From: a virus
Lineage: Duplodnaviria; Caudoviricetes
Length of the DNA stretch: 41,081 bases
Direction: 5' to 3' (one strand)
IMG/VR virus record: IMGVR_UViG_3300034279_001484
Span: 1-41,081 of that record
Shown here in pieces: positions 10,039 to 26,747 of this stretch. Under the pieces are notes generated by a model. It made no database searches. It saw only the letters and a program-made list of their open reading frames with translations, and was not told the DNA's origin. Positions within the stretch are counted from its first letter, which is position 1, and each line of letters starts with the position of its first letter. The position numbers and the translations under genes were made by a program.

Positions 10039-10533
10039 ATGACCGATACAAATGAAAACCTGGAAATTGGTAGACCGACCAAGAAAACTGAGCAGCGCAC
10101 AGAAGCGCTACTTCAGTCACTTCGTGCTGGAGCATCTCGGCAGCGGGCAGCGGCTTTGGCTGGTATTCATAGAGACACACTGTACGAGTGGATGAAGCAA
10201 GATCCTGCATTTTCCGACGCTATAGAAAAAGCAGAAGCATTTGCAGAATCTAGGTTTTTGGCTAGAGTGGCTACCGCAGCAGAAAATGAGCGCTCATGGC
10301 AGGCAGCCGCTTGGATCTTGGAGCGCAGGTTCCCGAATGAATGGCGCCGACGCGAAGGCGTTGAGGTCAGCGGAGCCGAAGGCAAGGCTATTGAGGTGAA
10401 AACTGTTGGAGACCCTGAAGCAGACGCAGCCCGACTCGCAGCAACCCTTGGACTTCTGGAGCAACTGGGCGTTGTCTCTAGACCCGACGACACGATCATC
10501 CCTGCTGGAGAGGCTGAATCCGACCCTTCCTGA
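10039..10533 (+). CDS. terS: Terminase small subunit
   Basis: GRPTK, HTH AAALAGIHRDTLYEW and WQAAAWILERRFP; directly upstream of terL. Confidence 0.88.
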   Translation: MTDTNENLEIGRPTKKTEQRTEALLQSLRAGASRQRAAALAGIHRDTLYEWMKQDPAFSDAIEKAEAFAESRFLARVATAAENERSWQAAAWILERRFPNEWRRREGVEVSGAEGKAIEVKTVGDPEADAARLAATLGLLEQLGVVSRPDDTIIPAGEAESDPS

Positions 10534-11872
10534 TTGCGTCCCGCACAAGCCAGAAGTGCCGCAGGCGGTGTTTCTGAGCCTGGGCAACCGAGAGGCTCTG
10601 TACGGCGGGGCTGCTGGTGGAGGCAAATCAGACGCTTTACTCATGGCTGCGCTTCAGCACATCCACATTCCCAACTATTCCGCCCTGCTGCTGCGCCGAA
10701 CCTACAAAGACCTCTCCCTACCCGATGCAGTCATGGATCGCGCTCGTAGGTGGCTCGCTGGTGCCTCTGGCGTGACCTGGAATGGTGAGCGAAGAGAGTT
10801 TCGCTGGGGAAATGGCGCCACGCTCGTATTCGGTCACTTGGAGAACGAAAACGACAAATACCGCTACCAGGGTGCCGCCTTCCAATACATCGGCTTTGAC
10901 GAGTTGACCCAGTTCAGCGAAACCCAGTACATGTTTGTTACATCACGCTTGCGACGGCTCAAGGGCTTTTCTGCCACGCCGCGAATCCGCTCGGCTTCCA
11001 ACCCTGGAGGGCTTGGGCATGACTGGGTGTTTAATCGCTTTATTCCCCACAAGGATGAGCGCACGGGTGAGTGGATTGTTCCGAGGGACAAGACGGGAGA
11101 GGCTCGGCTCTTTGTTCCAGCCAAATTGACTGATAACCCGCACCTAGACCAGGAAGAGTACATGCGGACGCTCAACGAACTGGACGATGTGATGCGCGCC
11201 CAACTGGTAGACGGCGCCTGGACTGTGGCTCCTGCAGGCGACTTTTTCAACCCTGGCTCTCTGGAGAACTATGTGGACGACCTGGAGTGGGGCGACTATC
11301 GCTGGGTTCGCTACTGGGACTTGGCTGCGACTGAGGCGAAGGCTGGGCGAGACCCCGACTACACGGCGGGCGCTCTGGTGGGGCGTTCCCAGAAAACGGG
11401 GCTTACTGTGGTCGCCGACATCCAGCGTGTCCGAGCGCGCCCTGACCAGGTGGAGAATCTGATCATGGCGTGCGCCCAGAATGACCCCAAGGGTACGGCG
11501 ATCCGAATGGAGCAGGAACCTGGCGCATCGGGCGTTATGGCAATTGACCATTACTCCCGCAAGGTGCTGTATGGGTACGATTTCAAGGGGCTGCGTGCAA
11601 CAGGCGCCAAGGATGTGCGCGCTCGTGCATTTGCAGCGCAGGCAAATCGTGGGAATGTGCGCCTAGTGCGTGGCTTCTGGAATTCACCCTTTGTTTCGGA
11701 GTGTTACGCTTTCCCCAAGGGCGCACACGACGACCAGGTGGACGCTGTGTCTGGCGCTGTCAACGAACTTTCTGGCATTTATGTTTCTGGCTCTGCTGCA
11801 ATTGCCCCCACACTGGCATCGCAACGGCTAGGATCTGAGACAATAAGGCGATCCCGATTGATCGCTGGTTAG
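10406..11872 (+). CDS. terL: Terminase large subunit (start uncertain)
   Basis: Walker A YGGAAGGGKS, Walker B IGFDELTQF, ASNPGG; nuclease motifs YWDLA, EQEPG and HDDQVDA. Confidence 0.96.
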   Translation: METLKQTQPDSQQPLDFWSNWALSLDPTTRSSLLERLNPTLPDCVPHKPEVPQAVFLSLGNREALYGGAAGGGKSDALLMAALQHIHIPNYSALLLRRTYKDLSLPDAVMDRARRWLAGASGVTWNGERREFRWGNGATLVFGHLENENDKYRYQGAAFQYIGFDELTQFSETQYMFVTSRLRRLKGFSATPRIRSASNPGGLGHDWVFNRFIPHKDERTGEWIVPRDKTGEARLFVPAKLTDNPHLDQEEYMRTLNELDDVMRAQLVDGAWTVAPAGDFFNPGSLENYVDDLEWGDYRWVRYWDLAATEAKAGRDPDYTAGALVGRSQKTGLTVVADIQRVRARPDQVENLIMACAQNDPKGTAIRMEQEPGASGVMAIDHYSRKVLYGYDFKGLRATGAKDVRARAFAAQANRGNVRLVRGFWNSPFVSECYAFPKGAHDDQVDAVSGAVNELSGIYVSGSAAIAPTLASQRLGSETIRRSRLIAG

Positions 11873-11879
11873 GAGAGAA

Positions 11880-13394
11880 ATGGCAAGTTTTACCGAGCGC
11901 GTAACCAAGGCTTTTAAAGTCCTCCGAGAGGGCTTGACTGAGCCTACGACTGGGCTGATTGATTCCGACGATTACCTGTATCGCCGACTTACTGGCGAGA
12001 CTCGTGACCTGACGCCTGTTACCCAGGAGCGCGCCCGCACGGTGTCTCGCTACCTGCATCGCCAAAACCCGCTGGCTCGCCGAATGGTGGAAATCATGGC
12101 GGACTTTGTGGTGGGCGATGGGCTGACCTATGTGTGCGTAGACCCAAATGTGCAAGAGATCGTGGATGAATTCTGGGCTGACCCTGAAATGAAGATGGAT
12201 CTGCGACATCGTGACCTGGTGGTAGACCTGGCTGTCAATGGCGAATTGTTCCTGCGCGCCTACGAGAAGAATGGCAAGGTGGCGCTTGGCTACATTGACC
12301 CAGCCCGCGTAAAGGAAGTTCACAAGGATAACGAAAACGCTTTTGTGGACAAGGAAATTACGATCTACACCAAGCGCTACCAGGAGGGCGAGGAAGTAGT
12401 GCCGATTATGCAGCCAATCCCAAGCAAGGCTGGTATGGACTTTGATGGCGAGGTTTTTGCCTATTTCATCAACCGCCCAGTAGGTGCGACTCGTGGCACG
12501 CCAGACTCATTGGCACTTGCCGACTGGATTGACGGTTACGACAGCATTATGTTCAACGCAGTGGATCGCGCAAACCTAATGAACACCTTTATTTGGGATG
12601 TAACCCTGAAGAATGCAGACGGCGAGCAGGTGCAGGATTGGTCGCGTAATCACCTGATTTCACCGAAGCCTGGAACAGTGCGCGTCCACAACGACTACGA
12701 AACCTGGCAGGCAGTCTCTCCAACGCTCGGCGCTTCAGAGACCGAAACAATTAGCCGCATGATTAAAAACCTGATCCTTGGCGGAGCGGGCGTCCCAGAA
12801 GCCTGGTTTGCAGATGGCGACTCAGCGAACCGCGCCACGGTTGCAGAGCAGGGAGCGCCGACCTACCGAATGTTGACCGCACGCCAGCGCCTAGTTGGTT
12901 CAATTTTTGAGGAAATTGCCCAGTATGTGATCGCCAAGGCGGTTCAGTCGGGGCGCCTCTCCAAGAATGTTGATCGTTCCTGCATCGTGGTGCTGCCAGA
13001 CCCAAGCGTGGAAGACACCAAGGGAATCGCAGCCGCCCTTCCGCAACTCATGGGCGCGCTTTCTGCTGCAACCAGCAGCAAATTCATCAGCACCGACTCC
13101 GCCCGCAAGGTATTCCTCAGCATCACCGAGCAGTTGGGCATTGAACTTGACCCAGAGGTTGAGGAAGAGTTGATTGAGGAAGAGGAAGCCGAGAATCTTG
13201 CCAAGCAGCAGGCGGCGGGTCTTCCAGCACCAGGCGCCCCAAACATGCAGCCAGCAATGTTGGACGCGCAGGCACGACGAGAGCAAGCCACGGTTGAGCA
13301 GGCTGAAGAGCGCATCGGCAAGGCAGCCGAATTTGGGGAAAAGCGCGAGACCGAGCAGGAAGGCTCAGAGCGCGAGAATCCTGGCGGGGCGTAA
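11880..13394 (+). CDS. Portal protein
   Basis: 504 aa directly after terL; NPLARRMVE...DFVVGDG, GELF and NRAT patterns. Confidence 0.88.
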   Translation: MASFTERVTKAFKVLREGLTEPTTGLIDSDDYLYRRLTGETRDLTPVTQERARTVSRYLHRQNPLARRMVEIMADFVVGDGLTYVCVDPNVQEIVDEFWADPEMKMDLRHRDLVVDLAVNGELFLRAYEKNGKVALGYIDPARVKEVHKDNENAFVDKEITIYTKRYQEGEEVVPIMQPIPSKAGMDFDGEVFAYFINRPVGATRGTPDSLALADWIDGYDSIMFNAVDRANLMNTFIWDVTLKNADGEQVQDWSRNHLISPKPGTVRVHNDYETWQAVSPTLGASETETISRMIKNLILGGAGVPEAWFADGDSANRATVAEQGAPTYRMLTARQRLVGSIFEEIAQYVIAKAVQSGRLSKNVDRSCIVVLPDPSVEDTKGIAAALPQLMGALSAATSSKFISTDSARKVFLSITEQLGIELDPEVEEELIEEEEAENLAKQQAAGLPAPGAPNMQPAMLDAQARREQATVEQAEERIGKAAEFGEKRETEQEGSERENPGGA

Positions 13395-13400
13395 TCCCGC

Positions 13401-16400
13401 ATGGCTGAAACAAAAGAGCCGCAGCAGCAGACCCCAGCCCAGCAAGAGCAGTGGGCAGGATCGCCAGCGCGTGAAGCCTGGGCAAAAGCGCTTCTAGATC
13501 GCGCCTACAAGGGCGTTGCAATTGAAGACAGCGCCATGGCGGAAATGAAGTCGCTGCTGTACCGCGCCCAAGAGGAAGTCGCCAAAATCCTGCAGGACTA
13601 CAACGGTCAGAGCATCCCAGAGTGGCGGCTCAACCGAGTGAATCAGCAAATTGCCGCCCTGGAGCGCTTGAGTGGCGAGTGGGATGCAAAGGCGACCGAA
13701 ATCCTGCGGAGGCATTTGGGAACGCTTGCACAGGCTGCAAAAGGGCTTCCAGCAGAGGAGCAGGCACGGGTCAACGATGCGATCAGCACGGCGAAGGCGC
13801 AGTTGGACGCTTCGGCTCGTGGTGAGGTGCGTGGCTCGCAGGCAACCGCAGGCTCAATTCGTGTCCCCACGGCGACTCGTGGTAGGGGCGCCGCTGGCAT
13901 GGTGTATTCCGACCCGCGCTATGTGGACATCGCCATCCAGTATGTCCCCGAACAAATCAAGGATTCGCTTGGCAAACTGAAAGCGGCAGTCAAGCAGGAA
14001 ATCATCCGAAACAGCCTTGCCCTGGATACGCCAGAAGCGAGCATGGCACGGTTGACCAGTGTGGCGACGCCGATTGGCGCGTTCCCTACGGCGGCAGTCC
14101 GAGCCGAGGCGATTGTTCGCACCGAATTTGGTCGGGTCAGCCAGATCGCCAACATGTCGGCTATCGCGCAAATGGCAGAGAATCCCTACGGCATCCCGAA
14201 TGAGGCTTCGGTGATGACAGACGCCAATGGGTTTATGTACAAGGAATGGATCGCAGTGGGCGACTCGCGCACGCGACCAGAACACGCAGCCCTGGATGGC
14301 ACCATCGTTCGCTACGACCAGCCGTTCATGGTGGGCGAGTTTGAAGCCCAGTTCCCGAAAGACCCAGCACTACCAGCCAAGCACGGCGTCAATTGCCGCT
14401 GCATGGTGGTTCCTGCGTTCCCGCCAGAATTCGCTGCACAGATGGGCGCGTTTAACCAGGGCGTCAATGGCGCAGTTCCTGGCGCGGGGATGGGCGACTA
14501 CCTAGACGCGGCGCTTAATGGCGAGCCAGTCCAGCCAGCCCAGCCGCTCCCAGGGGGCGGCTTCGTAGACCCGACGGATGTTTCAGTCATGGCACCAGAG
14601 GCAACGCCTAACCCTTATGGTGGCGTCATCCCAGTTGGCAGCGATGGTCACGGAATTGCAGCCGACGGCACAGTTATTTCGTCTGGACTTGCCGCGCAAG
14701 ATTTTATTGGCACGCAGCAGCAGTTGCTAGACAACATCCAACTGGCGATGAGCAGGATTAACACGCTTCCTGGCGTACAGCGCACCAGCAGGCTCGGCGT
14801 CAGCGACATCGTGTTCGGGCGAGTCACAGACATCTTGCGTCAGGCAACCGCATCGGTTGGGCGCGTTGCCAAGAGCCTTGCCACACCACCAAGCATCGCC
14901 GTCAACGATGACTCCCAGGCACTGCTTGCATTGCTGCAGCCAAAGAAGGGCGGAAAGCGCAAGAAGAAAGTCTTGGTTCCAGTGCGCGGCGACGAGATGT
15001 TTGAGGAGGCATTGCCGCCAGTCGCTTTGGTCATCAAGGATGCCGCTGCTATGGCTGGGAAATCGGCTGATGCAGCGGAATACATGTTGCAAACAGGGTT
15101 TAGTAAGTGGAAAGATTACCTGGAGTTCATTGCAACAGAGATGCGACGGCGAGACGAAGCAAATGCCAAGGGAGAGGCGTTTGTTCCAAAGCCAAAAATT
15201 GTTTACGACCGCAAAAACCAGAAAGGCGAGAGAGTCGTCCTGGAATTTGACTTGGATGCATGGGCAAAACTTCCAGCACCAGCGCGTGAATTCATCCTTC
15301 GCACGGTAACTTCACGAGAGGTGCGCGACAGTGGTCAGGACACATCTTTTGCAAATAGAGGCTTGATTGAAACGCTGGAGCAGCGAGCGCAAAAGCGTCT
15401 TAACCTCCTGATTGAAAGCGCACGGATGAATGAGCATGAGGCGACAAGTCAGGCAACGCAGGTCGCCATGCTCAAAGTTATTGAGCGAGCAGTCGGGAAA
15501 ATCGTCCCAGACTGGCACCGTCTACCCGTTGAGGAACTGCACAAGATGCTGTACGGCAGCGATACACCGCCAGACGACTCAAAGCAGATGCTGGAGCATG
15601 CCTTTGCTTCTGGGGGAAGAGGCGGGCGATCCAAACCAGAATACTTCATTCTGAAACGGCTCCAGGAGTTGCGCGGCGACCCGCGCTACGCAGAAATTCT
15701 GGCAAAGCACGACGCTGAGTCGCAACTGCCAGAAGATGTGCGAAAGGCTGTCTACGACTCTCCAGACGATTTGCTAGAGGGATTGGCAAAGGCGGAAGCA
15801 GCGGTTGAGGCGATTCTTGCCGAGCCAGAATCAGATCAGCAAACAGTCAAAACAAATTGGCGGCTTCGCCTGGATTCGGCAGTAGAAATTCTTAACGGCT
15901 GGGAAAAGATTCTGCAGTACCACTTGACCATGGACACCCTTCCTGGAAGCGGCTATTACGAGGCTGTCTACTTGGACTTGGCTGCACGGCTTGAGCGGCA
16001 GGGTGTGGACATTTCCAAAGATTTTGGTAAGTGGTATGTAGATCGGGAACTGCAAAACCCAGAATCCATTGTGTCCAAGCGCTTTGCGCTGATGAAGCAA
16101 ACATTAATCGTGCCAAAGCCAGGCGAAAAAGACTATGTGGAGCGAACGCCTGGCGAACTCAGCGTACAAGTTCCGCGACCAAACGACACCTTCATCAATC
16201 CGCTAACTGGACAGCCCATTACCGAGCGGGACATGCTGGAATTCCTGTACATGCAATACAACGACATGGATGTTGTCAACAAGGAACTAAACATTACCGC
16301 CGTAATGCGCCAGAATCTTCCCTACGGAATTGATTTGCGAGAGATGGATGCTCAGGCAACCCGCTCGCTTCTGTATCAGTTTGCAGAAGAGGTCGGACAC

Positions 16401-19397
16401 ATCACGCCAGAAATGATTCTTGGCACAGCACGGACGCAGTTGCTGCAGAAACTAGCACGAGAGGGAAAAATTGTTGTTGGAACCCATGGGTTTTTGCAAT
16501 ACAACGGAGTTGATTTATACACAACGCGCTCAGAGCGCCGACTTGCTCGCACTTACACTGGAGAGAAACTTGTATCGCATGTCGCCTTTACTCAGAGCCG
16601 CCACAACGAATCTTTAGACGCATCTATTCCAGAAACTCCAAATACCAGCGGAAGGCATCGCATTGAAGGATCTATCCACAGCGTTGTTGTTGCTGAAGCG
16701 TCGCCGCAAGACATCCCAGTGATCATCGCCGCATCAATCCTTTACGACGGACGAAAGCAAACTCATCTTTTTGGCGGGGAAGCAGATTTTCACCAGATGG
16801 ATTCCGTCAAAGCAACAACAACGACTGCGTGGAATTCGCTTCTAAAACTTTCTCAGCGATGGTCTGCTGCCATCAAATTGGCTGACAGAGCAAAAGACAA
16901 GTTCCTTGACGCCATGCTTACTGACGGCGTGATGCAAGATCCGCTGCAATACGAAGATTTCCTCAAGGCGACAGCAAAGCGAGCCATTGACGCTGGGCTT
17001 GCTGACCCAAACGATCCCCTGATCCAGCAATTGCTCAACACCAGGCGCATGCAAGACATTGATTTGTCGCATCCGCTTATTTCACGAATCATTCACGGCA
17101 TGACGGGCAATCGCAGCGGCGAGTCGCCAATCCTTGCGGCAGAGGCACTCGGATTCTCCCTTGACCCGCAACTAGTTGCAGACATTCACATAATTTCAGG
17201 AGTTCGCAGCGGCGTTTTCGGTCGCGCAGCGCTGTTCTCCGAGGAGCCAAATGGCTACGGTGCATTGCGTCGGGTTCTTACTGGTCGCCTTGGGCTGGAA
17301 TTTGGTGATGACATCACGGACGCTGCAGATCGCATTTCCGAAACTAAGGGATTCCTGTTTAAGGCAGCGCTGACGGGCGGCTACACAGTTAAAAAGCAAA
17401 AGGAACGGATGGGTACAGCATCGCCAGACGAAGGCTGGATTCTAAAACGCGATGGCGGCTGGCAAGACAAAGAAGTATCTATTGCATGGCACGAATTGGA
17501 ATTTCTCATTGCAGAAACTGCCGCACTTGAAGCGTTGGCACGCGGGGCAAACCCAGATGACGGTATTTATCCGACGCCGCTTGTTTTGGAAGTTGAGCCT
17601 CCAGCAGATCTGTGGCAGAGGGACGAAAACGATCAGAAACTTTATGCCTCAAAGATTCGTGACCAGCAAGAGCAACTTGTTCTGGATGTTGTTTTAACAA
17701 AATACCTGGATAGCGATGGAAAGCCGACGCGGGCTGGAGAATTGTTGCTTCGCACGGTTAGCGAGGAAGTTAAGGGCGGATTTGAATACGAAGGCGGGCT
17801 TTCGCCAAGACCAGCAGAAGCAATTCGCCAAATCATCATGAAATACGCGACAAGAGCCTCCATGTCAGCCATGACCAGGTACAACAACAGCGAAGGGAAA
17901 GCAATTAATTCCCTTGGCGGCAAGGCGTACTATGTTCGCAGCGCAGACTACGAGTATTTCTTTACGCCGATTGGCTATCGCGGCGCAATTTCACCAGAAA
18001 TGACTTATCGCTCCAGCGATGAATCTATTACCCAGTACCACAAGCCGACGCCACTTTCAAAAATCCTTTCTAACATCAAGAGATTCCGAGCGGCGCATCA
18101 GATGGCTTTGGTGTGGGCTGCGGATTCCGCCCGACTTGAACTTAAGCAAGGCATTAACGAACTGCTTCAGGGCGATCTTGCTGACATTAAAAAGCGCCAA
18201 GATTGGCGCGAGCGCATGGAAAAGATTGTCGCCAACATGCAGGCGCTGTCGCGCTCTAAAAAGCGGCAGCAGGCGTCAGGCACCACTGTCACGGATGAGA
18301 TCGTTGACGAGGCGTTCAAGCAACTTGACAAAGAATTGGAATCCGCCCTTAAAACAATTTCTGATGACAAATACACCTTCATTAAAGACCCCGCAGAAAT
18401 TGCGGCGATGGATGCGTTGCGAGCAAAGATCCAGGAGCAACTAGCGACTGCCCCTATCGCAAGCCCAAAACTTATTGGAAGCGGCGTCAGCGGTTCGTCA
18501 AGCGTGCGACTCAACGGGAAGAAAGCCCTAGTTAAAAACCGAAAAAAGATGCTGTCAAACGGCGCTATTCGTGAGCGGTTTGGCATTCCTCCCGACCAAG
18601 ACATGCGGGCAGAAATTGCCGCTCAGATCATTGACGAACTTGGCGGCTTGTTTATTGGCAAGGCACAGGCAACAACTCGCCGCATCCAAAAAAGCGATGG
18701 AATTACAGACGACATGGGTAACGATGTGTCTGGAGAGTCTTTGGTTATGGATTGGCTCACGGAAGGATGGCTTAGTGGAGAAGTAAACCATCACTTTGGT
18801 CGTCTTGCTGATGCGGTTAATTACGATTTGATGGGCGTCTACGAAACAATCATTGGGAACACTGACCGACATCGCGGTAATTTCCTTGTCGCCCCAGTCA
18901 TTGACCCAGCAGACCCGCAAATGATTGACAAGGATGGAAATGTTGTTGACGCCAGCGGTGCGCCGACGGGTGAGATGTGGAAGAGATGGAAAATCGTTCC
19001 GATTGACAACGGACTTGCCTTCCCAGACGCGGATGTACACATGAAAGCGGGCTTCGGAACATCGGCGCCTTGGTTGAATGGCGAAACAATGACGCCACGC
19101 GCACGAGAAGTGTTGCTAAAGATTTGGAAAAACAGGGTAGAACTTCACCGCAGGCTCAGTGCGGTTTTGCCGCCAGCAGCAGTGCGCGGAGCCTTCTATC
19201 GGATTATCTGGATGCTCAAAACGGGAAGAGTGATGGAGGGCGACGACTTTATGGAGGCAACTTACAACCCGCAGTCACCAAACAGCGACGGCGTAGTCGC
19301 AGCAGCCTTGGCTGAAGCAAAGTCCGTTCTAGACGCAAATGTTTCCACGGGCGAATTTGTTGCCCCTGGTCAGGTTGAAATTGGCTTGGAGCCATAA
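13401..19397 (+). CDS. Giant MuF (SPP1 gp7-like) minor head protein with a C-terminal PI3/PI4-kinase/HipA-like kinase domain
   Basis: MuF motifs RAEAIVRTE, KEW....DSRTRPEH..LDG and VNCRC; kinase motifs GSGVSG..ALVK, EIAAQIID, GNTDRHRGN and PIDNGLAF. Confidence 0.88.
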   Translation: MAETKEPQQQTPAQQEQWAGSPAREAWAKALLDRAYKGVAIEDSAMAEMKSLLYRAQEEVAKILQDYNGQSIPEWRLNRVNQQIAALERLSGEWDAKATEILRRHLGTLAQAAKGLPAEEQARVNDAISTAKAQLDASARGEVRGSQATAGSIRVPTATRGRGAAGMVYSDPRYVDIAIQYVPEQIKDSLGKLKAAVKQEIIRNSLALDTPEASMARLTSVATPIGAFPTAAVRAEAIVRTEFGRVSQIANMSAIAQMAENPYGIPNEASVMTDANGFMYKEWIAVGDSRTRPEHAALDGTIVRYDQPFMVGEFEAQFPKDPALPAKHGVNCRCMVVPAFPPEFAAQMGAFNQGVNGAVPGAGMGDYLDAALNGEPVQPAQPLPGGGFVDPTDVSVMAPEATPNPYGGVIPVGSDGHGIAADGTVISSGLAAQDFIGTQQQLLDNIQLAMSRINTLPGVQRTSRLGVSDIVFGRVTDILRQATASVGRVAKSLATPPSIAVNDDSQALLALLQPKKGGKRKKKVLVPVRGDEMFEEALPPVALVIKDAAAMAGKSADAAEYMLQTGFSKWKDYLEFIATEMRRRDEANAKGEAFVPKPKIVYDRKNQKGERVVLEFDLDAWAKLPAPAREFILRTVTSREVRDSGQDTSFANRGLIETLEQRAQKRLNLLIESARMNEHEATSQATQVAMLKVIERAVGKIVPDWHRLPVEELHKMLYGSDTPPDDSKQMLEHAFASGGRGGRSKPEYFILKRLQELRGDPRYAEILAKHDAESQLPEDVRKAVYDSPDDLLEGLAKAEAAVEAILAEPESDQQTVKTNWRLRLDSAVEILNGWEKILQYHLTMDTLPGSGYYEAVYLDLAARLERQGVDISKDFGKWYVDRELQNPESIVSKRFALMKQTLIVPKPGEKDYVERTPGELSVQVPRPNDTFINPLTGQPITERDMLEFLYMQYNDMDVVNKELNITAVMRQNLPYGIDLREMDAQATRSLLYQFAEEVGHITPEMILGTARTQLLQKLAREGKIVVGTHGFLQYNGVDLYTTRSERRLARTYTGEKLVSHVAFTQSRHNESLDASIPETPNTSGRHRIEGSIHSVVVAEASPQDIPVIIAASILYDGRKQTHLFGGEADFHQMDSVKATTTTAWNSLLKLSQRWSAAIKLADRAKDKFLDAMLTDGVMQDPLQYEDFLKATAKRAIDAGLADPNDPLIQQLLNTRRMQDIDLSHPLISRIIHGMTGNRSGESPILAAEALGFSLDPQLVADIHIISGVRSGVFGRAALFSEEPNGYGALRRVLTGRLGLEFGDDITDAADRISETKGFLFKAALTGGYTVKKQKERMGTASPDEGWILKRDGGWQDKEVSIAWHELEFLIAETAALEALARGANPDDGIYPTPLVLEVEPPADLWQRDENDQKLYASKIRDQQEQLVLDVVLTKYLDSDGKPTRAGELLLRTVSEEVKGGFEYEGGLSPRPAEAIRQIIMKYATRASMSAMTRYNNSEGKAINSLGGKAYYVRSADYEYFFTPIGYRGAISPEMTYRSSDESITQYHKPTPLSKILSNIKRFRAAHQMALVWAADSARLELKQGINELLQGDLADIKKRQDWRERMEKIVANMQALSRSKKRQQASGTTVTDEIVDEAFKQLDKELESALKTISDDKYTFIKDPAEIAAMDALRAKIQEQLATAPIASPKLIGSGVSGSSSVRLNGKKALVKNRKKMLSNGAIRERFGIPPDQDMRAEIAAQIIDELGGLFIGKAQATTRRIQKSDGITDDMGNDVSGESLVMDWLTEGWLSGEVNHHFGRLADAVNYDLMGVYETIIGNTDRHRGNFLVAPVIDPADPQMIDKDGNVVDASGAPTGEMWKRWKIVPIDNGLAFPDADVHMKAGFGTSAPWLNGETMTPRAREVLLKIWKNRVELHRRLSAVLPPAAVRGAFYRIIWMLKTGRVMEGDDFMEATYNPQSPNSDGVVAAALAEAKSVLDANVSTGEFVAPGQVEIGLEP

Positions 19398-20893: not shown

Positions 20894-21685
20894 ATGCCAA
20901 AGCCAGTAGATGAAGCAGTTCGCGTCATTGCCCAGCATGCCCTGGTGGAGTACGCATCGGGGCAACCACGAGACCGCAAAGGGCGCTTTAGCGGCACGGG
21001 CGGCGGAGGAGGCGGGGGCGGAGTCGTAGATCCAAACGCCCCGTATGACGCCATTGGCGATCCAGTAATGGCAGGATTGGCAAAGAATTTGTACGGAGAC
21101 CTAGCGCAATACGATAAAAAGGGCGACTACATCCCAACATCCCCATCCGAGAAGAAGGCTGCGGCAAGGTGGGTAGAAAGCGACGGCTACAAAGCCATCC
21201 AAGCCGCCCAGTCTGGCGAGCGCTCCTATGAAATTCATGGCGAAAAGCGCTTTGTGCATGAAGGGGATGTGGCGCAGGCGGCAATTATGACTTCGTTGAC
21301 ACAGCGGGCAAGGACAACTGAGGATTTGGTGGTCTCTCGCGGAATCAAGGTGCCGCCAACTGGAAAGTCCGCCCTTGTCGCTGCCGTTGAGCAGGCTGGG
21401 GTTGGCGGAACAATCCAGATTCCGAAGTTCACGGCTACTTCAAAAAACCCAATGGTGGCAGTGTCATTTTCTACAAAGCAAATTGTGCGGATTGCGGCTC
21501 CAAAGGGAACCAGGGCGCTAGACTTTGACCTAATCAAACACGGCTTGCCCAAGGGTTCCTGGGGAAACCAAAACAACGAGCGCGAAGTGTTGTTCCCGCC
21601 TGGCGCACGGTTTCGGGTGGTGGACATCAAGCGCGGCGCGGTTGAGGGCAGCATTTTTATTGACCTAGTAGCACTGGGGGACTAA
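20894..21685 (+). CDS. ADP-ribosyltransferase (R-S-E, VIP2/Alt-like) with an N-terminal QPRDxKGRF-polyGly signal
   Basis: VSRG, FTATS and NEREVLFPPGARFRV motifs; AGGAGG RBS before ATG 20894. Confidence 0.88.
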   Translation: MPKPVDEAVRVIAQHALVEYASGQPRDRKGRFSGTGGGGGGGGVVDPNAPYDAIGDPVMAGLAKNLYGDLAQYDKKGDYIPTSPSEKKAAARWVESDGYKAIQAAQSGERSYEIHGEKRFVHEGDVAQAAIMTSLTQRARTTEDLVVSRGIKVPPTGKSALVAAVEQAGVGGTIQIPKFTATSKNPMVAVSFSTKQIVRIAAPKGTRALDFDLIKHGLPKGSWGNQNNEREVLFPPGARFRVVDIKRGAVEGSIFIDLVALGD

Positions 21686-22500
21686 TGAGCGACAAGTTTG
21701 TAGAAGACCTGGAAGTTATCGTTGTAAGCGTCGGGAAGCCGCTCACGGAAGCCTTGTTGCTGGAGTACGCCGCTGGGCAGCCCCGCGATAAAAAGGGGCG
21801 ATTCGGTAGCACTGGCGGCGGTGGTGGCGGAGGGGGTGGCGGCGTCGTAGACGCCCAGCAGGTCATTGCGGTTACCAGGGAGAACGAAGGCGCCACTTTG
21901 CCAACGGGCGTGGGGTCGGCTGGGGTGCGCGTCACGGGCGAGCAGCCGAAGTCGGGTTACGCCGTAGCCACGGGCATTGCTGGTCGGGTGGTTAGCGCCG
22001 ACGATTTCTTTGATCGCACTAAGGGCGTGGAAATCGTTGACAAGTTCCTTGCTGACAATGCCCAACATTTTGCCAATCCAGCGCACCATCTCGGCACCTG
22101 GCACGAAACCAAGACAGGTCGTGTACACTTGGACATTACCGAGGTATTCCCTGCTGGTCAGCGAAGAGTTGCCGTGCAAGCAGGGCGCGACCGAGATCAA
22201 ATCAGCATCTTTAACCTAAAAACACTTAAAGAAATCCCAACGGGAGGCAAAGGTGGAGTCCAAGAATCAGAAGATCGTCCAGGTGCCAACGGACATCGGT
22301 ACGATGACGCCCGAAGAGCGACGGAAAGTGGCGGAGCAGTTGTGGGAGACGCTCTCGTCGCAGATTCTGGAGAGCCACAAGCGCAATCCGCAGATGGTGG
22401 CGCTGGACGAGTTGCTGGACGACAAGACTTCCAAGGGCTGACGCCTAACGAATTGATCGCGGAGTACGCGAAGCGAAATCCAACCTGGGACGGTTGCTAA
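21685..22500 (+). CDS. Effector-like protein with the QPRDxKGRF-polyGly signal; central domain possibly SAM-lyase-like
   Basis: Shared N-terminal signal; GAT...P.SGYAVA...HLGTW...GRVHLDI...AG..RDQISIFNL domain; the fold call is inference. Confidence 0.6.
   Translation: MSDKFVEDLEVIVVSVGKPLTEALLLEYAAGQPRDKKGRFGSTGGGGGGGGGGVVDAQQVIAVTRENEGATLPTGVGSAGVRVTGEQPKSGYAVATGIAGRVVSADDFFDRTKGVEIVDKFLADNAQHFANPAHHLGTWHETKTGRVHLDITEVFPAGQRRVAVQAGRDRDQISIFNLKTLKEIPTGGKGGVQESEDRPGANGHRYDDARRATESGGAVVGDALVADSGEPQAQSADGGAGRVAGRQDFQGLTPNELIAEYAKRNPTWDGC
22253..22441 (+). CDS. Nested 62-aa helical protein; candidate antitoxin/immunity
   Basis: GGAGG 5 nt before GTG; MTPEERRKVAEQLWETL resembles addiction-module component helices; overlaps the low-complexity tail of 21685-22500 in another frame. 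Confidence 0.6.
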   Translation: MESKNQKIVQVPTDIGTMTPEERRKVAEQLWETLSSQILESHKRNPQMVALDELLDDKTSKG

Positions 22501-22515
22501 GGTTATTATTGCTTT

Positions 22516-24522
22516 ATGACTGACATTCGCAAATTGTCCCGCGAAATTGCTGAGGCGCTCCTCAAGGAGTACGCCCCTAGTCAGCCGCGAGATAAAAAGG
22601 GACGCTTTGGCAGCACTGGAGGCGGTGGGGGCGGCGGAGGCGCAGTAGATGTTTCAGGCGTTCCGTCGCACGCACGGATGCGCGATCTCTCTCCTGGAAG
22701 CCCAACCATCGGGAAAGATGTGCAGGTAACTTTCGCAACGCTTCCAGCAAAAACGCAAAGCGACTTGGGAAAACTTCGCAGCGAAGGCGGACACAGCCTT
22801 ACTCCGCACATCAACGAACGCGGAACATTGTCTCCAGAGCGCGCAGCGTTTCACCGAGATCTTGTCAGTCGGCAAATTCTTAGCGAAGCCGAAGTTGCCA
22901 GCGCTGGAGTTGCCCGCGCAGACGGCAAGCCAACGCTAGTCATTCTTGGCGGAGGCGGCGGCGCTGGAAAGTCAACGCTCCTAGACACAATTGATACCAA
23001 AGACCCTGCGTTCAAGAAAGACTTGGAAGCGCTTGGCATTGTGGTTCCTTCCGCAAAAATTAAGCACAACGAAGACGGAACCAGCACAAAAATTGACGAC
23101 TCACCTGGAGTGCGACGAACTGCTGCGGTTGTAAATGCTGACCATGCAAAAGCAGGAATCTGGTCTGCCAAAGAAGACACTCGCGGAGCAACTGAAATTA
23201 CCAGCGGTGGCACAACCAAGCCGATGACGGCAGCGGGGCGTGTTCACGAAGAGTCGTCAGTAATTGCACAGCGAGCGGTGGAAGTCAACCTATCTCGTGG
23301 CGCGGATGTGATCCTTGACGGAACTGGCGACGGATCGGCAGAAAAGCGAATGGCTCAATTTGAGGGAGCATCCACAACGCACGATGTTGTGGGAGTGTTC
23401 GTTACCACAAGAATTGGCACAACCGCAGACGATGGCGTTCGCGGAGATGTTGGGCGAAGAAACGGCAAGCCAATGACCCTAACTGACGGTTCATCAATGG
23501 TTCGCTCTGTCCCAGACGATTTGATCGTTACGGCGCATCGGGCTTCTAACGCCGCATTCCTCCAAGGCGTTTCAAAGCCAGGCAGCATGTTCCATCGCGC
23601 CGTTGTCTACGAACGCACACCAGTAGTCGGGACAAACGGAAAGCAAACCCTGGACAGCGCTGGACGACCACAATACAAATTCACGCTTGCTGGTCACTAC
23701 GAAGCAGGTGTATTCCGAGAAATTGTCCCTGGAATTAGGCAGCGCATGGCTGCTCGCGCAAGGACTGACGAACAGGGAAGAGACATTGGGTTGCCAACTG
23801 ATTTTGGTTTGAACGAAGCAATTCGTGAGGCTGGCGAGGAAGTCCAGGGCGGAAGCAACTTGCCGTATTGGGTTTTGCTTGACCTTTATTCGGAAATTCT
23901 TCGCGGCACATCCGAAGACGAATCTGCAGTGCTAGACGAGTACCCAGAGGCTCAAGCGGACTGGGATCGTGTTTCTGCCTATGTCGCCTCCGCGCCAGAA
24001 GATGTTGTCATTGACCTGCCAGCAGAAATCAGCACGCGAAGCATCAATTTGCAAAGCATCTACCCAAACTCGCCAGACCAGGAGCCATCGTCCCTTGGAG
24101 TTAAGGAGGCAGCAATGCCGTTGGCTCCTCACGACAATGCGCTGTACGACGCCTACGAAAAGATTCTGGCGCAGCACGGTAAGTGGGCGCAGGGCGGCGC
24201 AGATGGCGCCCGATACCTGAACGAATCCCCATCGCTGGCTAAGGGAATCATGTGCGGAAATTGCGTTTTCTACATTGAAGGCGGCGCTTGTGAGTTGGTT
24301 GAGGGAATCATCCGACCAGAAGGCGGATGCAAACTCAACATCCCTGAGCCGATCACCGAAGGCACACCAGGGCGCAGAAGGGCGTTGCGTGCTTTGGCGC
24401 GTGCTAAGGTAAAAAACAAACTTCGTGTTAAGGCTGGAAAAAAGCCTATCATCGCTGGCAAAGAGATCGCAGTTAGCACTTATGTCAATGAGTATGGAGA
24501 CCCAAGAAAGGGTAAAGAATGA
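22516..24522 (+). CDS. Polyprotein: QPRDxKGRF signal, zeta-toxin-like P-loop kinase, acidic helical domain, HiPIP-like Cys domain and basic tail
   Basis: LGGGGGAGKST, VNADHAK, VHEESS and VILDGTG (zeta/AAA_33-like); CGNCVFY...CELVEG.I.PEGGC. Confidence 0.82.
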   Translation: MTDIRKLSREIAEALLKEYAPSQPRDKKGRFGSTGGGGGGGGAVDVSGVPSHARMRDLSPGSPTIGKDVQVTFATLPAKTQSDLGKLRSEGGHSLTPHINERGTLSPERAAFHRDLVSRQILSEAEVASAGVARADGKPTLVILGGGGGAGKSTLLDTIDTKDPAFKKDLEALGIVVPSAKIKHNEDGTSTKIDDSPGVRRTAAVVNADHAKAGIWSAKEDTRGATEITSGGTTKPMTAAGRVHEESSVIAQRAVEVNLSRGADVILDGTGDGSAEKRMAQFEGASTTHDVVGVFVTTRIGTTADDGVRGDVGRRNGKPMTLTDGSSMVRSVPDDLIVTAHRASNAAFLQGVSKPGSMFHRAVVYERTPVVGTNGKQTLDSAGRPQYKFTLAGHYEAGVFREIVPGIRQRMAARARTDEQGRDIGLPTDFGLNEAIREAGEEVQGGSNLPYWVLLDLYSEILRGTSEDESAVLDEYPEAQADWDRVSAYVASAPEDVVIDLPAEISTRSINLQSIYPNSPDQEPSSLGVKEAAMPLAPHDNALYDAYEKILAQHGKWAQGGADGARYLNESPSLAKGIMCGNCVFYIEGGACELVEGIIRPEGGCKLNIPEPITEGTPGRRRALRALARAKVKNKLRVKAGKKPIIAGKEIAVSTYVNEYGDPRKGKE

Positions 24523-26747
24523 CGCCTGACGAGTTGAACGCAGACCTCGTAATCGGAAGCCGCGAAGATGTCGCCGCTGCCGTTGAGATTCTTAAGGAAG
24601 AGGATCGTGACGGTCTCCGATCATTTGTGACCCATGCCGCCGCCGCTGTTGATGCGGCTGATTTGATTCCATCCGACTGGAGCGCCCCTGTTGAGGTTCC
24701 AGCAGAAGAGATCGTCCCCGTTGAAGAGATCCCAAGTGGCGATGAGGCTGAAGGCGTTGTTATGGAGGCTGTTGAGCCGACAGGCAGCGTTGTAGATGTC
24801 CTGCTGATCCAGCCAGGGATGTCAAAGAATCGCCGCCGCTATTCCGAATCCACACTCCGCGATGCCGTTCCGCTTTTTGAAGGCGCACGGGCATTTGCTG
24901 GCAAGGGAATTGACCACAACCCAGACGAGCGCGGGGTGCGATCCCTGGTTGGCTGGTACACAAATGCCCGCTGGGTAGACAAGGCGCCACACCCAACCAA
25001 GAAGGGCGCAACTGTTTCTGGCGTTGCAGCCAATTTCCATGTTTCTGAGGCTGCGCCTTGGCTCAAGGCAATGATGGCTGATTCAATCAAGCGCGGCAAG
25101 CCAGATCTTGTCGGCTTCTCCATCGTCGGCGACGGCGAAACCGCACTGGTGCGCGAGGCACGCAGCCAGTTTATTGATGTAACGAAGATCAACACCATTG
25201 AAAGTGTTGATGTCGTTGTAAACCCCGCTGCAGGCGGTATGCCAATGCGCTTGGTAGCAAGTGCAAATAGCGTACCAACTGGTATTGATTGGGGTATTAT
25301 CAATCGCAGTGAGGCTCTTAGCCTCATTGCAGAAGGCGTTTTGCTCCCTGAAGAACTCATGGAGAAACGCGCAGATCTCTACGAGCAGTTGCTCGCAGAG
25401 GCAGTTGTTGCGCTTCAGGCGCAGAAGGAGAACGGAACAGTGGAGAACCAGACGGAGACTACCGTCGTGGATACCGTTACCGAGAAGGTCGGCGCGGTTA
25501 TCACGAAGGCTCTCGTTGAGGCTCGCCTTGCTGGTGTCACTCTTCCCGATAGCGCCAAGAAGCGCGTTCGGGAGGCGACCGAGGGCAAGGTGCTTGACGA
25601 GACCGCTATTGACGCAGTGGTGAAGGCGGAAGCCGACTACATTGCAGAACTCACCAAGCCAGCCGTTACCGACGCCGCTGCAGTTGTGACCGATGTGGTC
25701 GCCCCTGCCGACAAGGTAAAGGAGGCGGTGTATCAGATCGTTGCTGGCAAGTCCAGCCAGTCCATCAAGGGACTGTATGTGGATCTTTCAAACGACCGCT
25801 CGTTCACGGGCAAGATTCAGGAGGGCGCGGTACTTGCCGAGGCTCTTACCGTTTCGTCGTTTGACCAGATTCTCGGCGATTCCATCACCCGCCGAATGCT
25901 TGAGTATTACAACCAGCCAGGGCTGGATCAGTGGCGCAAGTTGGTGTCAGTTGGCTCGGTCAACGACATGCGAACCCAGCGCCGCATCCGCTTCGGTGGC
26001 TACAACAACCTGTCAGTGGTAACTGAGGGAAGCGCTTACGGCGCTCTCACCAGCCCAACGGACGAGGAAGCCACCTACGCTCCGAGCAAGAAGGGCGGCA
26101 CCGAGGTAATCACGATGGAAATGATCGTGAACGATGACCTTGGCGCCATCCGCGACATCCCGCGCCGACTTGGACGGGCTGCCGCTCAGACCCTTCACGA
26201 GTTTGTGTTTGACATCCTCAAGGACAACGGTGCGATCTACGACAGCGTTGCGCTGTTCCATGCTTCGCACGGCAACCTGGGCAGCACCGCTTTGACGGCT
26301 GCTTCGCTCAAGGCTGCTCGCCTTCAGATGCTCAAGCAGGCTGATGTCTCAAACAGCAAGCGCCTTGGCATTACGCCAAAGTATCTTGTGATCCCAGTGG
26401 ATCTTGAGCAGGATGCCTTCACAATCTTGAACTCGGTCTTCCTCCCATCGGGCGTCGGCACGGCTGCTCCATCGGACGCGAACTATGCTCGCACCTTTGG
26501 TCTTGAGCCAGTGTCGGTTCCTTACTGGACAGACACGAACAACTGGTTCCTGGTCGCTTCGCCAATGGATGTTCCGACAATTGAAGTCGGCTTCCTCAAT
26601 GGCAAGGAAGACCCAGAACTCTTCGTTCAGGATCAGCCTGTCAACGGCAGCATGTTCAGCAATGACAAGATCACTTACAAGGTTCGCCACATTTACGGTG
26701 GTGCAGTCCTTGATTACCGTGGTCTGCAGGGCAACATCGTCGCCTAA
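24519..26747 (+). CDS. Prohead protease-scaffold-major capsid protein fusion (Mu gpT-like capsid domain)
   Basis: Protease motifs G.SKNRRRYS, DH, GFSI and SVDVVVNPAAGG; capsid motifs IVNDDLGAIRDIP..LGRAA, LFHASHGNL, PKYLVIP.DLE and YKVRH.YGG..LDYRG. Confidence 0.92.
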   Translation: MTPDELNADLVIGSREDVAAAVEILKEEDRDGLRSFVTHAAAAVDAADLIPSDWSAPVEVPAEEIVPVEEIPSGDEAEGVVMEAVEPTGSVVDVLLIQPGMSKNRRRYSESTLRDAVPLFEGARAFAGKGIDHNPDERGVRSLVGWYTNARWVDKAPHPTKKGATVSGVAANFHVSEAAPWLKAMMADSIKRGKPDLVGFSIVGDGETALVREARSQFIDVTKINTIESVDVVVNPAAGGMPMRLVASANSVPTGIDWGIINRSEALSLIAEGVLLPEELMEKRADLYEQLLAEAVVALQAQKENGTVENQTETTVVDTVTEKVGAVITKALVEARLAGVTLPDSAKKRVREATEGKVLDETAIDAVVKAEADYIAELTKPAVTDAAAVVTDVVAPADKVKEAVYQIVAGKSSQSIKGLYVDLSNDRSFTGKIQEGAVLAEALTVSSFDQILGDSITRRMLEYYNQPGLDQWRKLVSVGSVNDMRTQRRIRFGGYNNLSVVTEGSAYGALTSPTDEEATYAPSKKGGTEVITMEMIVNDDLGAIRDIPRRLGRAAAQTLHEFVFDILKDNGAIYDSVALFHASHGNLGSTALTAASLKAARLQMLKQADVSNSKRLGITPKYLVIPVDLEQDAFTILNSVFLPSGVGTAAPSDANYARTFGLEPVSVPYWTDTNNWFLVASPMDVPTIEVGFLNGKEDPELFVQDQPVNGSMFSNDKITYKVRHIYGGAVLDYRGLQGNIVA

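What the first reader, a model, noticed from the sequence alone, without database searches (positions are those of the whole stretch)
20894..24522. Three unrelated effector enzymes share one N-terminal signal: a candidate modular capsid-cargo loading system
Seen: three consecutive head-module genes begin with a short leader and a near-identical peptide. These are ALVE-YASGQPRDRKGRFSGT-G7-VVD (20942-21031), LLLE-YAAGQPRDKKGRFGST-polyG-VVD (21757-21852) and LLKE-YAPSQPRDKKGRFGST-G7-AVD (22561-22650). The copies differ at many synonymous positions (CAA CCA CGA GAC / CAG CCC CGC GAT / CAG CCG CGA GAT), so the peptide rather than the DNA is conserved. After the Gly linker the domains are unrelated: an ADP-ribosyltransferase, a possible SAM-lyase fold and a zeta-toxin kinase. 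Established: T4 packages internal proteins through a short N-terminal capsid-targeting sequence removed by gp21 after (I/L)-x-E, and it injects the ART Alt; MuF-fused toxins are also known. Inference: the motif is a portable head-loading or DNA-tethering tag on stand-alone, swappable effectors that are injected with the genome for host takeover, anti-defence or competition.
Basis: partly seen in the sequence, partly recalled or inferred. Interest (0 to 1): 0.92.

Follow-up and report, generated by a model that had tools for sequence, protein, structure and literature searches.

The report
Shared delivery tag on phage cargo
Three enzymes in the head region of this uncultured phage carry the same 13-residue tag found on unrelated proteins of many other phages, placed just behind a predicted cut site that matches each phage's own head protease, so it likely docks swappable enzymes inside the virus head for injection.

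Summary
A profile hits 4,679 protein clusters, including polyproteins with up to 21 matched stretches. It precedes ART, zeta, PBECR, LPD3, NUDIX, GNAT and other domains, often fused behind portal, MuF or head protease.

The residue before the tag is constant within a protein (114 of 125) and tracks the head protease. D/N goes with DUF2213 and K/R with S78 types (29 of 31, then 30 of 30 in a test predicted beforehand). E occurs here, where L-x-E also marks the scaffold/capsid junction (109 of 120 homologues). So the conserved part most likely stays on the mature enzyme, unlike T4's removed targeting peptide. In head modules with no detectable protease it sits directly behind the start Met.

Best reading (0.5): a docking peptide that loads or holds each effector in the head. 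ART and zeta are supported; SAM lyase is inconclusive. Gene 2 overlaps a conserved nested gene, likely an inhibitor.

The parts
20894..21685 (+). Gene 1 (263 aa): leader, tag, linker, ADP-ribosyltransferase domain
   Evidence: PF03496 E 2.4e-5; R149, T182-S183, E229-x-E231 located (R-S-E motif names recalled)
20894..20950 (+). Gene 1 leader, 19 aa, ending in predicted protease site L-V-E (20942-20950)
   Evidence: site inferred
20951..21022 (+). Tag 1 (20951-20989) and S-G-T-G8 linker
21685..22500 (+). Gene 2 (271 aa): leader, tag, linker, 138-aa alpha/beta domain (21847-22260, possibly SAM-lyase-like), poorly conserved tail
21685..21765 (+). Gene 2 leader, 27 aa, ending in L-L-E (21757-21765); residues 1-17 are conserved only in relatives that have the ART gene just upstream
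21766..21843 (+). Tag 2 (21766-21804) and G-S-T-G10 linker
22253..22441 (+). Nested 62-aa gene in another frame over the tail of gene 2 (GTG start, GGAGG 5 nt upstream); likely inhibitor of the gene-2 domain
   Evidence: 25-26 of 53 residues identical in three relatives against 13-19 of 53 for the gene-2 frame
22516..24522 (+). Gene 3 (668 aa): leader, tag, zeta-toxin-like kinase (about 22645-23790), acidic helical domain (about 23839-24100), four-Cys domain (about 24118-24350), basic tail; hydrophobic-x-E sites fall at the domain borders
22516..22569 (+). Gene 3 leader, 18 aa, ending in L-K-E (22561-22569)
22570..22641 (+). Tag 3 (22570-22608) and G-S-T-G8 linker
24519..26747 (+). Prohead protease (about 24774-25250; His133, Ser201, Asp231 conserved), scaffold and major capsid protein in one gene
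25833..25844 (+). Scaffold/capsid junction L439-A-E441|A442, predicted maturation site of the same type as the three leaders
   Evidence: L 101, E 109, S/A 119 of 120 homologues
13401..19397 (+). MuF protein (1998 aa) with a C-terminal PI3/4-kinase-like domain; carries no tag (context)
10406..13394 (+). Terminase large subunit and portal (context)

Best explanation
Each of the three genes encodes a short leader ending in L-x-E, a conserved 13-residue tag, a Gly linker and an enzyme-like domain; the phage's head protease likely cuts after the Glu, and the tag, kept at the new N-terminus, likely docks the enzyme on an inner head component so that it is packaged and would be injected with the DNA. 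Shown: the anatomy, the spread of the tag, its head-module context, the match between the residue before the tag and the head-protease family, and its position directly behind Met where no protease was found. Inferred: cleavage, packaging, docking, injection and the effector roles (ADP-ribosylation, phosphorylation, possibly SAM cleavage against host defences). Every unit of a polyprotein or portal fusion needs its own tag because, once cut free, it would otherwise lose its hold in the head. Small partner proteins or peptides encoded behind each enzyme likely keep it quiet in the producing cell. The docking partner is not identified; the capsid inner wall or the portal are my candidates.
For: Spread: about 180 and about 630 IMG/VR stretches for two strict patterns, 4,679 clusters at E<=0.001, about 270 stretches in prokaryote genomes of many phyla. 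Cargo: 60 of 150 downstream units have a Pfam hit, mostly enzymes (ART 24, zeta 8, LPD3 5, PBECR 5, single NUDIX, GNAT, 2H, kinases, topoisomerase IB) and no tail or capsid family. Carriers: of 56 long upstream segments, 23 are portals, 7 MuF, 2 head proteases. Cut site: one hallmark residue within 4 positions of the tag in at least 80% of copies in 114 of 125 polyproteins (z about 21 against shuffles), with little signal (z 0.4-2.4) beyond position -7. It tracks the protease family in 29 of 31 contigs and in 30 of 30 contigs predicted beforehand. The same residue ranks first in pooled scaffolds for D, N and K and for E in this phage's family (5.8-fold; junction E in 109 of 120). The gene-2 domain occurs behind a K-type tag in P0156. 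Tag kept: K is depleted in the linker of K-type proteins (0.020 against 0.057, p 5e-8). Leader not needed: in 7 head modules with scaffold and capsid but no protease hit, tagged genes start with the tag within about 5 residues of Met. The tag is modelled as a small hairpin (pLDDT 83 over residues 11-20).
Against: No virion, cleavage or binding data exist for any tagged protein. Depletion of the hallmark residue was significant for K, marginal for F (p 0.04, n=4) and R (p 0.07), and absent for D, N, A and L. L186 has D-type tags but a K-rich scaffold, and L213 is a miss under the strict rule. The scaffold test was weak for R (rank 2, 4, 12) and for the single L and E contigs. Contigs are related and no tree correction was made, so the p-values are overstated. 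The held-out test was not fully blind: portal or DUF2213 hits for 7 of the searched D/N loci were seen earlier. The 7 protease-less modules share one portal family, and only their head regions were scanned. This phage's MuF cargo has no tag, so the tag is not required for all head cargo. Leaders of stand-alone genes are more alike within a phage than internal flanks (0.62 against 0.05, p 0.023), so a leader may do the loading in some phages. Five tags lie far from the head module, and some tagged genes lie in bacterial chromosomes without head genes nearby.
Confidence: 0.5

Rival explanations
1. The tag is an ejection (threading) signal. Cargo is loaded by the leader or by fusion to portal, MuF or protease, and the cut exposes the tag so that the portal or tail exit path engages it.
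For: The tag is almost always near a natural or predicted N-terminus: spacer 0-2 residues in 462 of 499 copies, and 50 of 117 genome tags have Met within 4 residues. Portal-fused units need no loading signal yet carry it. Leaders show phage-specific likeness. The only PDB match is a loop in the baseplate hub of phage 7-7-1, on the exit path (E 0.049).
Against: Leaderless tagged genes in protease-less phages have no other shared loading signal. The tag occurs with four portal families. The hub match is single, weak and lacks the first aromatic residue.
Confidence: 0.22
2. The tag binds the packaged DNA and the enzyme is dragged into the cell with the genome.
For: Invariant Arg and frequent Arg/Lys in the hairpin. 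The three tags here are +3. A 72-aa basic protein of phage MET13-T1 starts with the core motif. DNA is common to all these phages.
Against: 443 of 641 polyprotein tags and 194 of 295 locus tags are net negative.
Confidence: 0.1
3. The tag acts after injection, binding a conserved host factor or setting the effector's lifetime (a new N-terminal W/Y/F is an N-degron in bacteria; recalled).
For: The aromatic residue would be the very first residue in 247 of 499 copies. Tagged genes occur in bacterial chromosomes away from head genes (L447, L454).
Against: Half of the copies have a 1-3 residue spacer. Hosts span many phyla with one or two membranes. The tag is tied to head modules.
Confidence: 0.08
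4. The tag is only a docking site that directs the head protease to the cut (and may load cargo by riding on the protease).
For: It lies next to the predicted site. Every protease identified was an S78, S78_2, DUF2213, Mu-like or window-type enzyme, and no ClpP was found in 39 contigs (no baseline).
Against: It occurs in head modules with no detectable protease. Scaffold and capsid sites and the inner sites of gene 3 have no tag.
Confidence: 0.05
5. The motif is a functionless recombination cassette copied among cargo genes.
For: Some tags are followed by only about 27 residues (L070, L052).
Against: Synonymous divergence among copies, invariant P-R and G across phyla and a match of the preceding residue to the protease.
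Confidence: 0.05

Closest known systems
Phage T4 capsid-targeting sequence of IPI-III and Alt, removed by gp21; SPN3US/phiKZ ejection-protein propeptides (PMC5694885, passages)
   Same: Short N-terminal leader on head cargo ending in a hydrophobic-x-E site; an ADP-ribosyltransferase among the cargo; the cut matches the capsid maturation site.
   Different: In T4 the signal is the 10-20-residue piece that is removed. Here the conserved peptide follows the site, repeats inside polyproteins, is shared across unrelated phages and is paired with at least six different cut residues.
Polyvalent proteins of phages (Iyer et al. 2017, PMC5512222, passages)
   Same: Same domain repertoire (ART-PolyVal, PBECR, LPD3, LPD13, InPase, Kinase-PolyVal, 2H, zeta), fusions to MuF and portal, proposed virion packaging.
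   Different: That paper proposes processing mainly by MPTase metallopeptidases. In the passages seen it describes no repeated tag and no match of a cut residue to the head protease; its supplements were not seen.
MuF polymorphic toxins (Jamet et al. 2017, PMC5576092, passages)
   Same: Head-module toxin-like domains followed by small ORFs proposed as immunity.
   Different: The three genes have no MuF domain, and this phage's MuF has no tag. The words 'motif' and 'cleav' do not occur in that paper's main text.
Phage SAM lyase Svi3-3 (PDB 6ZM9; PMC7877911, passages), for gene 2 only
   Same: Invariant G83, W85, D96, Q118 echo G56, Y58, E69, Q104, with the same 13-residue spacing from Gly to the acidic residue; 6ZM9 appears in both fold searches.
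   Different: Matches are weak (Foldseek E 0.56; Z 2.6, rmsd 3.4, 69 aligned); the spacing to Gln differs (22 against 35).
PHROG phrog_38358 (unknown function)
   Same: Positions 3-26 of the profile match the tag in all three genes.
   Different: Unnamed family. No Pfam or NCBIfam model covered the tag in the proteins scanned.

Membership tests
T4-type capsid-targeting sequence | Short N-terminal propeptide ending in (I/L)-x-E | tested here: met
   Leaders of 19, 27 and 18 aa ending L-V-E, L-L-E, L-K-E
T4-type capsid-targeting sequence | The conserved signal is the part removed by the protease | tested here: not met
   The conserved peptide lies after the predicted site
T4-type capsid-targeting sequence | Cleavage by the prohead protease inside the head | not testable with these tools
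   Indirect support only
T4-type capsid-targeting sequence | Sufficient to package a foreign protein | not testable with these tools
   Needs a reporter fusion
T4-type capsid-targeting sequence | Protease of the gp21 (S77) family | tested here: inconclusive
   No Pfam protease family hit at E<=0.1; His/Ser/Asp conserved and E-site enriched
MuF polymorphic toxins | MuF domain N-terminal to the toxin | tested here: not met
   No MuF hit in genes 1-3; MuF is a separate gene
MuF polymorphic toxins | Small downstream ORF as immunity candidate | tested here: inconclusive
   Conserved nested ORF behind gene 2; candidates for genes 1 and 3 are fused segments; no activity tested
Phage polyvalent proteins | Several unrelated effector domains in one chain, encoded among virion genes | tested here: met
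   Gene 3, the gene 2+3 fusion in relatives, and tagged polyproteins with ART-PolyVal, InPase, MuF
Phage polyvalent proteins | Processing by an MPTase metallopeptidase | tested here: inconclusive
   No such Pfam hit; one weak HEXXH hit in P0039
VIP2-like ADP-ribosyltransferase (gene 1) | PF03496 match and R-S-E catalytic motifs | tested here: met
   24.2 bits, cut-off 23.4; R149, T182-S183, E229-x-E231 (motif definition recalled)
Zeta-toxin-like kinase (gene 3) | PF06414 match with Walker A | tested here: met
   28.9 bits, cut-off 22.3, residues 135-161; relatives score higher. Substrate not testable
Phage SAM lyase (gene 2) | Svi3-3-like fold | tested here: inconclusive
   Model pLDDT 94; 6ZM9 at E 0.56 and Z 2.6, rmsd 3.4, 69 aligned
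Phage SAM lyase (gene 2) | Conserved G, Y, E, Q substrate residues | tested here: inconclusive
   G83, W85, D96, Q118 invariant in 9 sequences against PMC7877911 passages; equivalence not shown by superposition
Phage SAM lyase (gene 2) | Trimer and SAM cleavage | not tested
   Needs an assay

The most novel reading that the evidence does not exclude
Tailed phages with unrelated portals, proteases and hosts share one short address peptide, read by a conserved part of the head, that loads any attached enzyme and carries it into the next cell; phages fit it with a cut site for their own protease, and some bacteria put it on chromosomal toxin-like genes to load their proteins into passing phage heads.
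Probability: 0.25. Interest if true: 0.93.

Novelty: new variant of a known kind. Interest (0 to 1): 0.8.

Why it matters
How virion-borne effectors (MuF toxins, polyvalent proteins) are loaded, released and injected is open outside a few model phages. The tag makes it testable with a 13-residue mutation in cultured phages. It marks domain borders and candidate injected effectors, 90 of 150 of which have no Pfam family, so it is a search handle for new anti-defence enzymes. It also gives predicted cleavage specificities for DUF2213 (Asp/Asn) and other uncharacterised head proteases. If it is sufficient for packaging, it is a portable way to load proteins into phage heads.

Tried and rejected
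tblastn of short tags against cultured phages is insensitive: 3 weak records, none, 12 with a D-type tag. Per-contig dipeptide scoring of scaffolds was too noisy. The pooled version used three patterns, all reported. Fold searches did not place gene 2, and the Atlas gave only hypothetical proteins. Mu-like protease was found in 1 of 49 contigs, ClpP in 0 of 39. The 7-7-1 structure paper says nothing about the hub loop in the passages seen. Rejected: a chance or recent DNA duplication (synonymous divergence); the tag as the removed T4-type peptide; the tag as a pure protease docking site. About ten core-only matches without a Gly/Ser linker (such as L003, L012, L092, L141, L142) were treated as atypical and left out of the Pfam tally. 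Earlier scan findings gave no match by place or sequence.
Full report
Setting. The window is a 41-kb virus record with terminase, portal, MuF, a fused protease-scaffold-capsid gene, tail tube and a likely tape measure protein. The three genes lie between MuF and the protease gene.

Observation. Confirmed. Each gene reads leader - L-x-E - Y-x3-QPRD-[R/K]-KGRF - Gly run - domain. The copies differ at many synonymous sites, and the chance expectation is 2.4e-6. Gene 1 passes the Pfam cut-off for an ADP-ribosyltransferase and gene 3 for zeta toxin. Gene 2 folds confidently (pLDDT 94) but matches the SAM lyase 6ZM9 only weakly. Its invariant G, W, D, Q resemble the conserved residues reported in PMC7877911 (passages), so SAM lyase is possible, not shown.

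The tag is widespread. Two strict patterns match about 180 and about 630 IMG/VR stretches and one matches about 270 stretches in prokaryote genomes, from Actinomycetota, Bacillota and Pseudomonadota to Melainabacteria, Planctomycetota and Spirochaetota (bins may be contaminated). A profile of 63 copies hits 4,679 clusters, with up to 21 matched stretches in one protein. Units between tags have a median length of 255 aa and the 8 residues after the tag are 45% Gly/Ser against 16% background. I scanned 150 of 188 non-redundant downstream units (left out: the window's three, nine short or atypical units and the last 26 of the list). Sixty have a Pfam hit: ART of three kinds 24, zeta 8, LPD3 5, PBECR/LPD13 5, MuF 4, and single NUDIX, GNAT, 2H, histidine phosphatase, topoisomerase IB, two kinases, ParB, CdiA-C and DUFs; none is a tail or capsid family. 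Of 56 long upstream segments, 23 are portals of four families, 7 MuF, 2 head proteases, 2 C39 peptidases, 7 enzymes and 15 unassigned. Of 55 tags in contigs with an identified protease, 47 lie within 15 kb of it and 54 on its strand; three more are near across the ends of terminal-repeat contigs and five are distant.

The residue before the tag behaves as a protease site. In 114 of 125 polyproteins with three or more copies, one residue occurs within four positions of the tag in at least 80% of copies (K in most; also A, L, D, R, N, F, E). The constancy is z about 21 at positions -3 to -1 and 0.4-2.4 beyond -7, so it is not simple duplication. In 50 contigs searched for three protease families, 13 had DUF2213 and 18 had S78 or S78_2. 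The nearest of K/R/D/N was D or N in 13 of 13 and K or R in 16 of 18 (misses L213, L186). I then wrote predictions for 50 more loci. Forty-two records were searched: 21 had DUF2213, all predicted D/N; 9 had an S78 type, all predicted K; 12 had no protease hit, mostly short fragments. Caveats: the contigs are related, and hints for 7 of the searched D/N loci had been seen. Pooled scaffolds rank the same residue first for D, N and K in at least two of three patterns; R and the single L and E contigs are weak. For this phage's own family, L-x-E|(S/A) marks the scaffold/capsid junction (E in 109 of 120), hydrophobic-x-E-(A/S) is 5.8-fold enriched in scaffolds and not in capsids, and His, Ser and Asp are conserved in the protease. 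Such sites are denser in genes 1-3 and the protease gene (1.1-1.8 per 100 aa) than in terminase, tape measure, MuF or portal (0-0.5; tail tube 0.6). A distant contig with this protease type also has an E-type tag (L251), and the gene-2 domain appears with a K-type tag in P0156. That such proteases cut after one residue type is known for T4 gp21 and SPN3US gp245 (PMC5694885, passages); for HK97 it is recalled.

The tag is more than a cut site. It lies after the predicted cut, 0-2 residues away in 462 of 499 copies, and K-type proteins avoid Lys in the tag core and linker; the other types show little or no such avoidance. In seven head modules with scaffold and capsid but no protease hit (L167, L210, L445, L449, L451-L453; one portal family; head regions only), tagged genes start with the tag within about five residues of Met and carry cargo of the same kinds (LPD3, PBECR1, MuF_C). 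So the tag sits near a natural or protease-made N-terminus and needs neither leader nor protease. Its core is modelled as a small hairpin. Most tags are net negative, which favours a protein partner over DNA.

Modularity. In close relatives genes 2 and 3 form one chain with an internal L-L-E site and tag (L310-L314), gene 3 stands alone in L002 and L067, and the ART gene was found upstream in L312-L314 only, among nine loci of unequal length. A nested gene overlaps the tail of gene 2 and is better conserved than that tail, which fits the small immunity ORFs proposed for MuF toxins (PMC5576092, passages).

Mechanism. Most likely (0.5) the proteins enter the procapsid, the protease cuts after L-x-E, and the tag docks each freed enzyme on an inner head component until it is injected. 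The nearest rival (0.22) is that the tag is an ejection signal and loading is done by leaders and fusions; leaders of stand-alone genes are modestly alike within a phage. DNA tether, host-side role, protease docking and no function share the rest. Cleavage, packaging, partner and injection are all inferred.

Against my reading. No experimental data exist. The statistics lack a tree correction. L186 is a true mismatch. This phage's MuF cargo has no tag. Five tags lie far from head genes. Some chromosomal tagged genes have no head genes nearby.

Prior knowledge. T4-type targeting peptides, polyvalent proteins and MuF toxins are known, and the cargo belongs to that world. I found no description of this tag in nine full-text searches (listings and abstract starts; one search used motif strings), nor in passages of PMC5512222, PMC5576092, PMC5694885 and PMC12796354. 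Subscription papers are mostly outside the library, and the supplements of PMC5512222 were not seen and could hold the motif. No Pfam or NCBIfam model covered the tag in the proteins scanned; PHROG 38358 holds it unnamed. Earlier scan notes (unchecked, read after my hypothesis was formed) describe protease-cut cargo polyproteins with other motifs; one of them found only weak support for cargo cleavage.

Verdict. Real, widespread and apparently undescribed: a new variant of protease-processed head cargo, in which a conserved retained tag is paired with an exchangeable cut site. Interest 0.8.

Noticed in passing
window 22253-22441 (+): Nested 62-aa gene over the tail of gene 2, better conserved than the gene-2 frame; similar small ORFs follow distant homologues L315, L316, L318, L319. 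In relatives it is overprinted on the linker of a polyprotein. Likely inhibitor.
   Followed up: partly
window 21685-21735: The first 17 residues of gene 2 are conserved only in relatives with the ART gene upstream (L312-L314), not in L310, L311, L002, L029, L067: possible ART partner peptide.
   Followed up: partly
window 23839-24350: Gene 3 continues with an acidic helical domain and a four-Cys domain (HiPIP-like pattern, recalled), each bounded by hydrophobic-x-E sites and conserved in relatives.
   Followed up: partly
L447:9045-10016 (-), L454:9352-9972 (-), L446:1-177 (-), L448:9989-10888 (+): Chromosomal genes of Melainabacteria bins start with the tag right after Met (one carries an M23 peptidase next to WYL and GIY-YIG genes). 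No head genes were found among scanned ORFs around L447 and L454; L446 was seen on one side only; L448 lies about 8 kb from a terminase.
   Followed up: partly
L041:9071-15138 (-): A cluster of stand-alone genes about 38-41 kb from the head module shares a phage-specific helical leader ending in K; most carry the tag or a variant, and one shows no tag behind its leader.
   Followed up: partly
L273:3903-5267 (phage 7-7-1 baseplate hub, PDB 9RKU): Core motif plus Gly/Ser run inserted in a loop of a tail protein, without the first aromatic residue; E 0.049.
   Followed up: partly
L274:7992-8210 (Xanthomonas phage MET13-T1): 72-aa basic protein behind the terminase begins with the core motif.
   Followed up: no
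L186 / L300: D-type tags in a phage whose scaffold is K-rich and whose protease is S78_2: a mismatch, possibly a recently acquired module.
   Followed up: partly
window 13401-19397: 1998-aa MuF protein with a PI3/4-kinase-like C-terminal domain and about 1,400 unassigned residues; no tag.
   Followed up: no
P0001, P0002: Polyproteins of 7,334 and 5,313 aa with 15 and 16 regex-counted tags, nearly all preceded by Phe.
   Followed up: no
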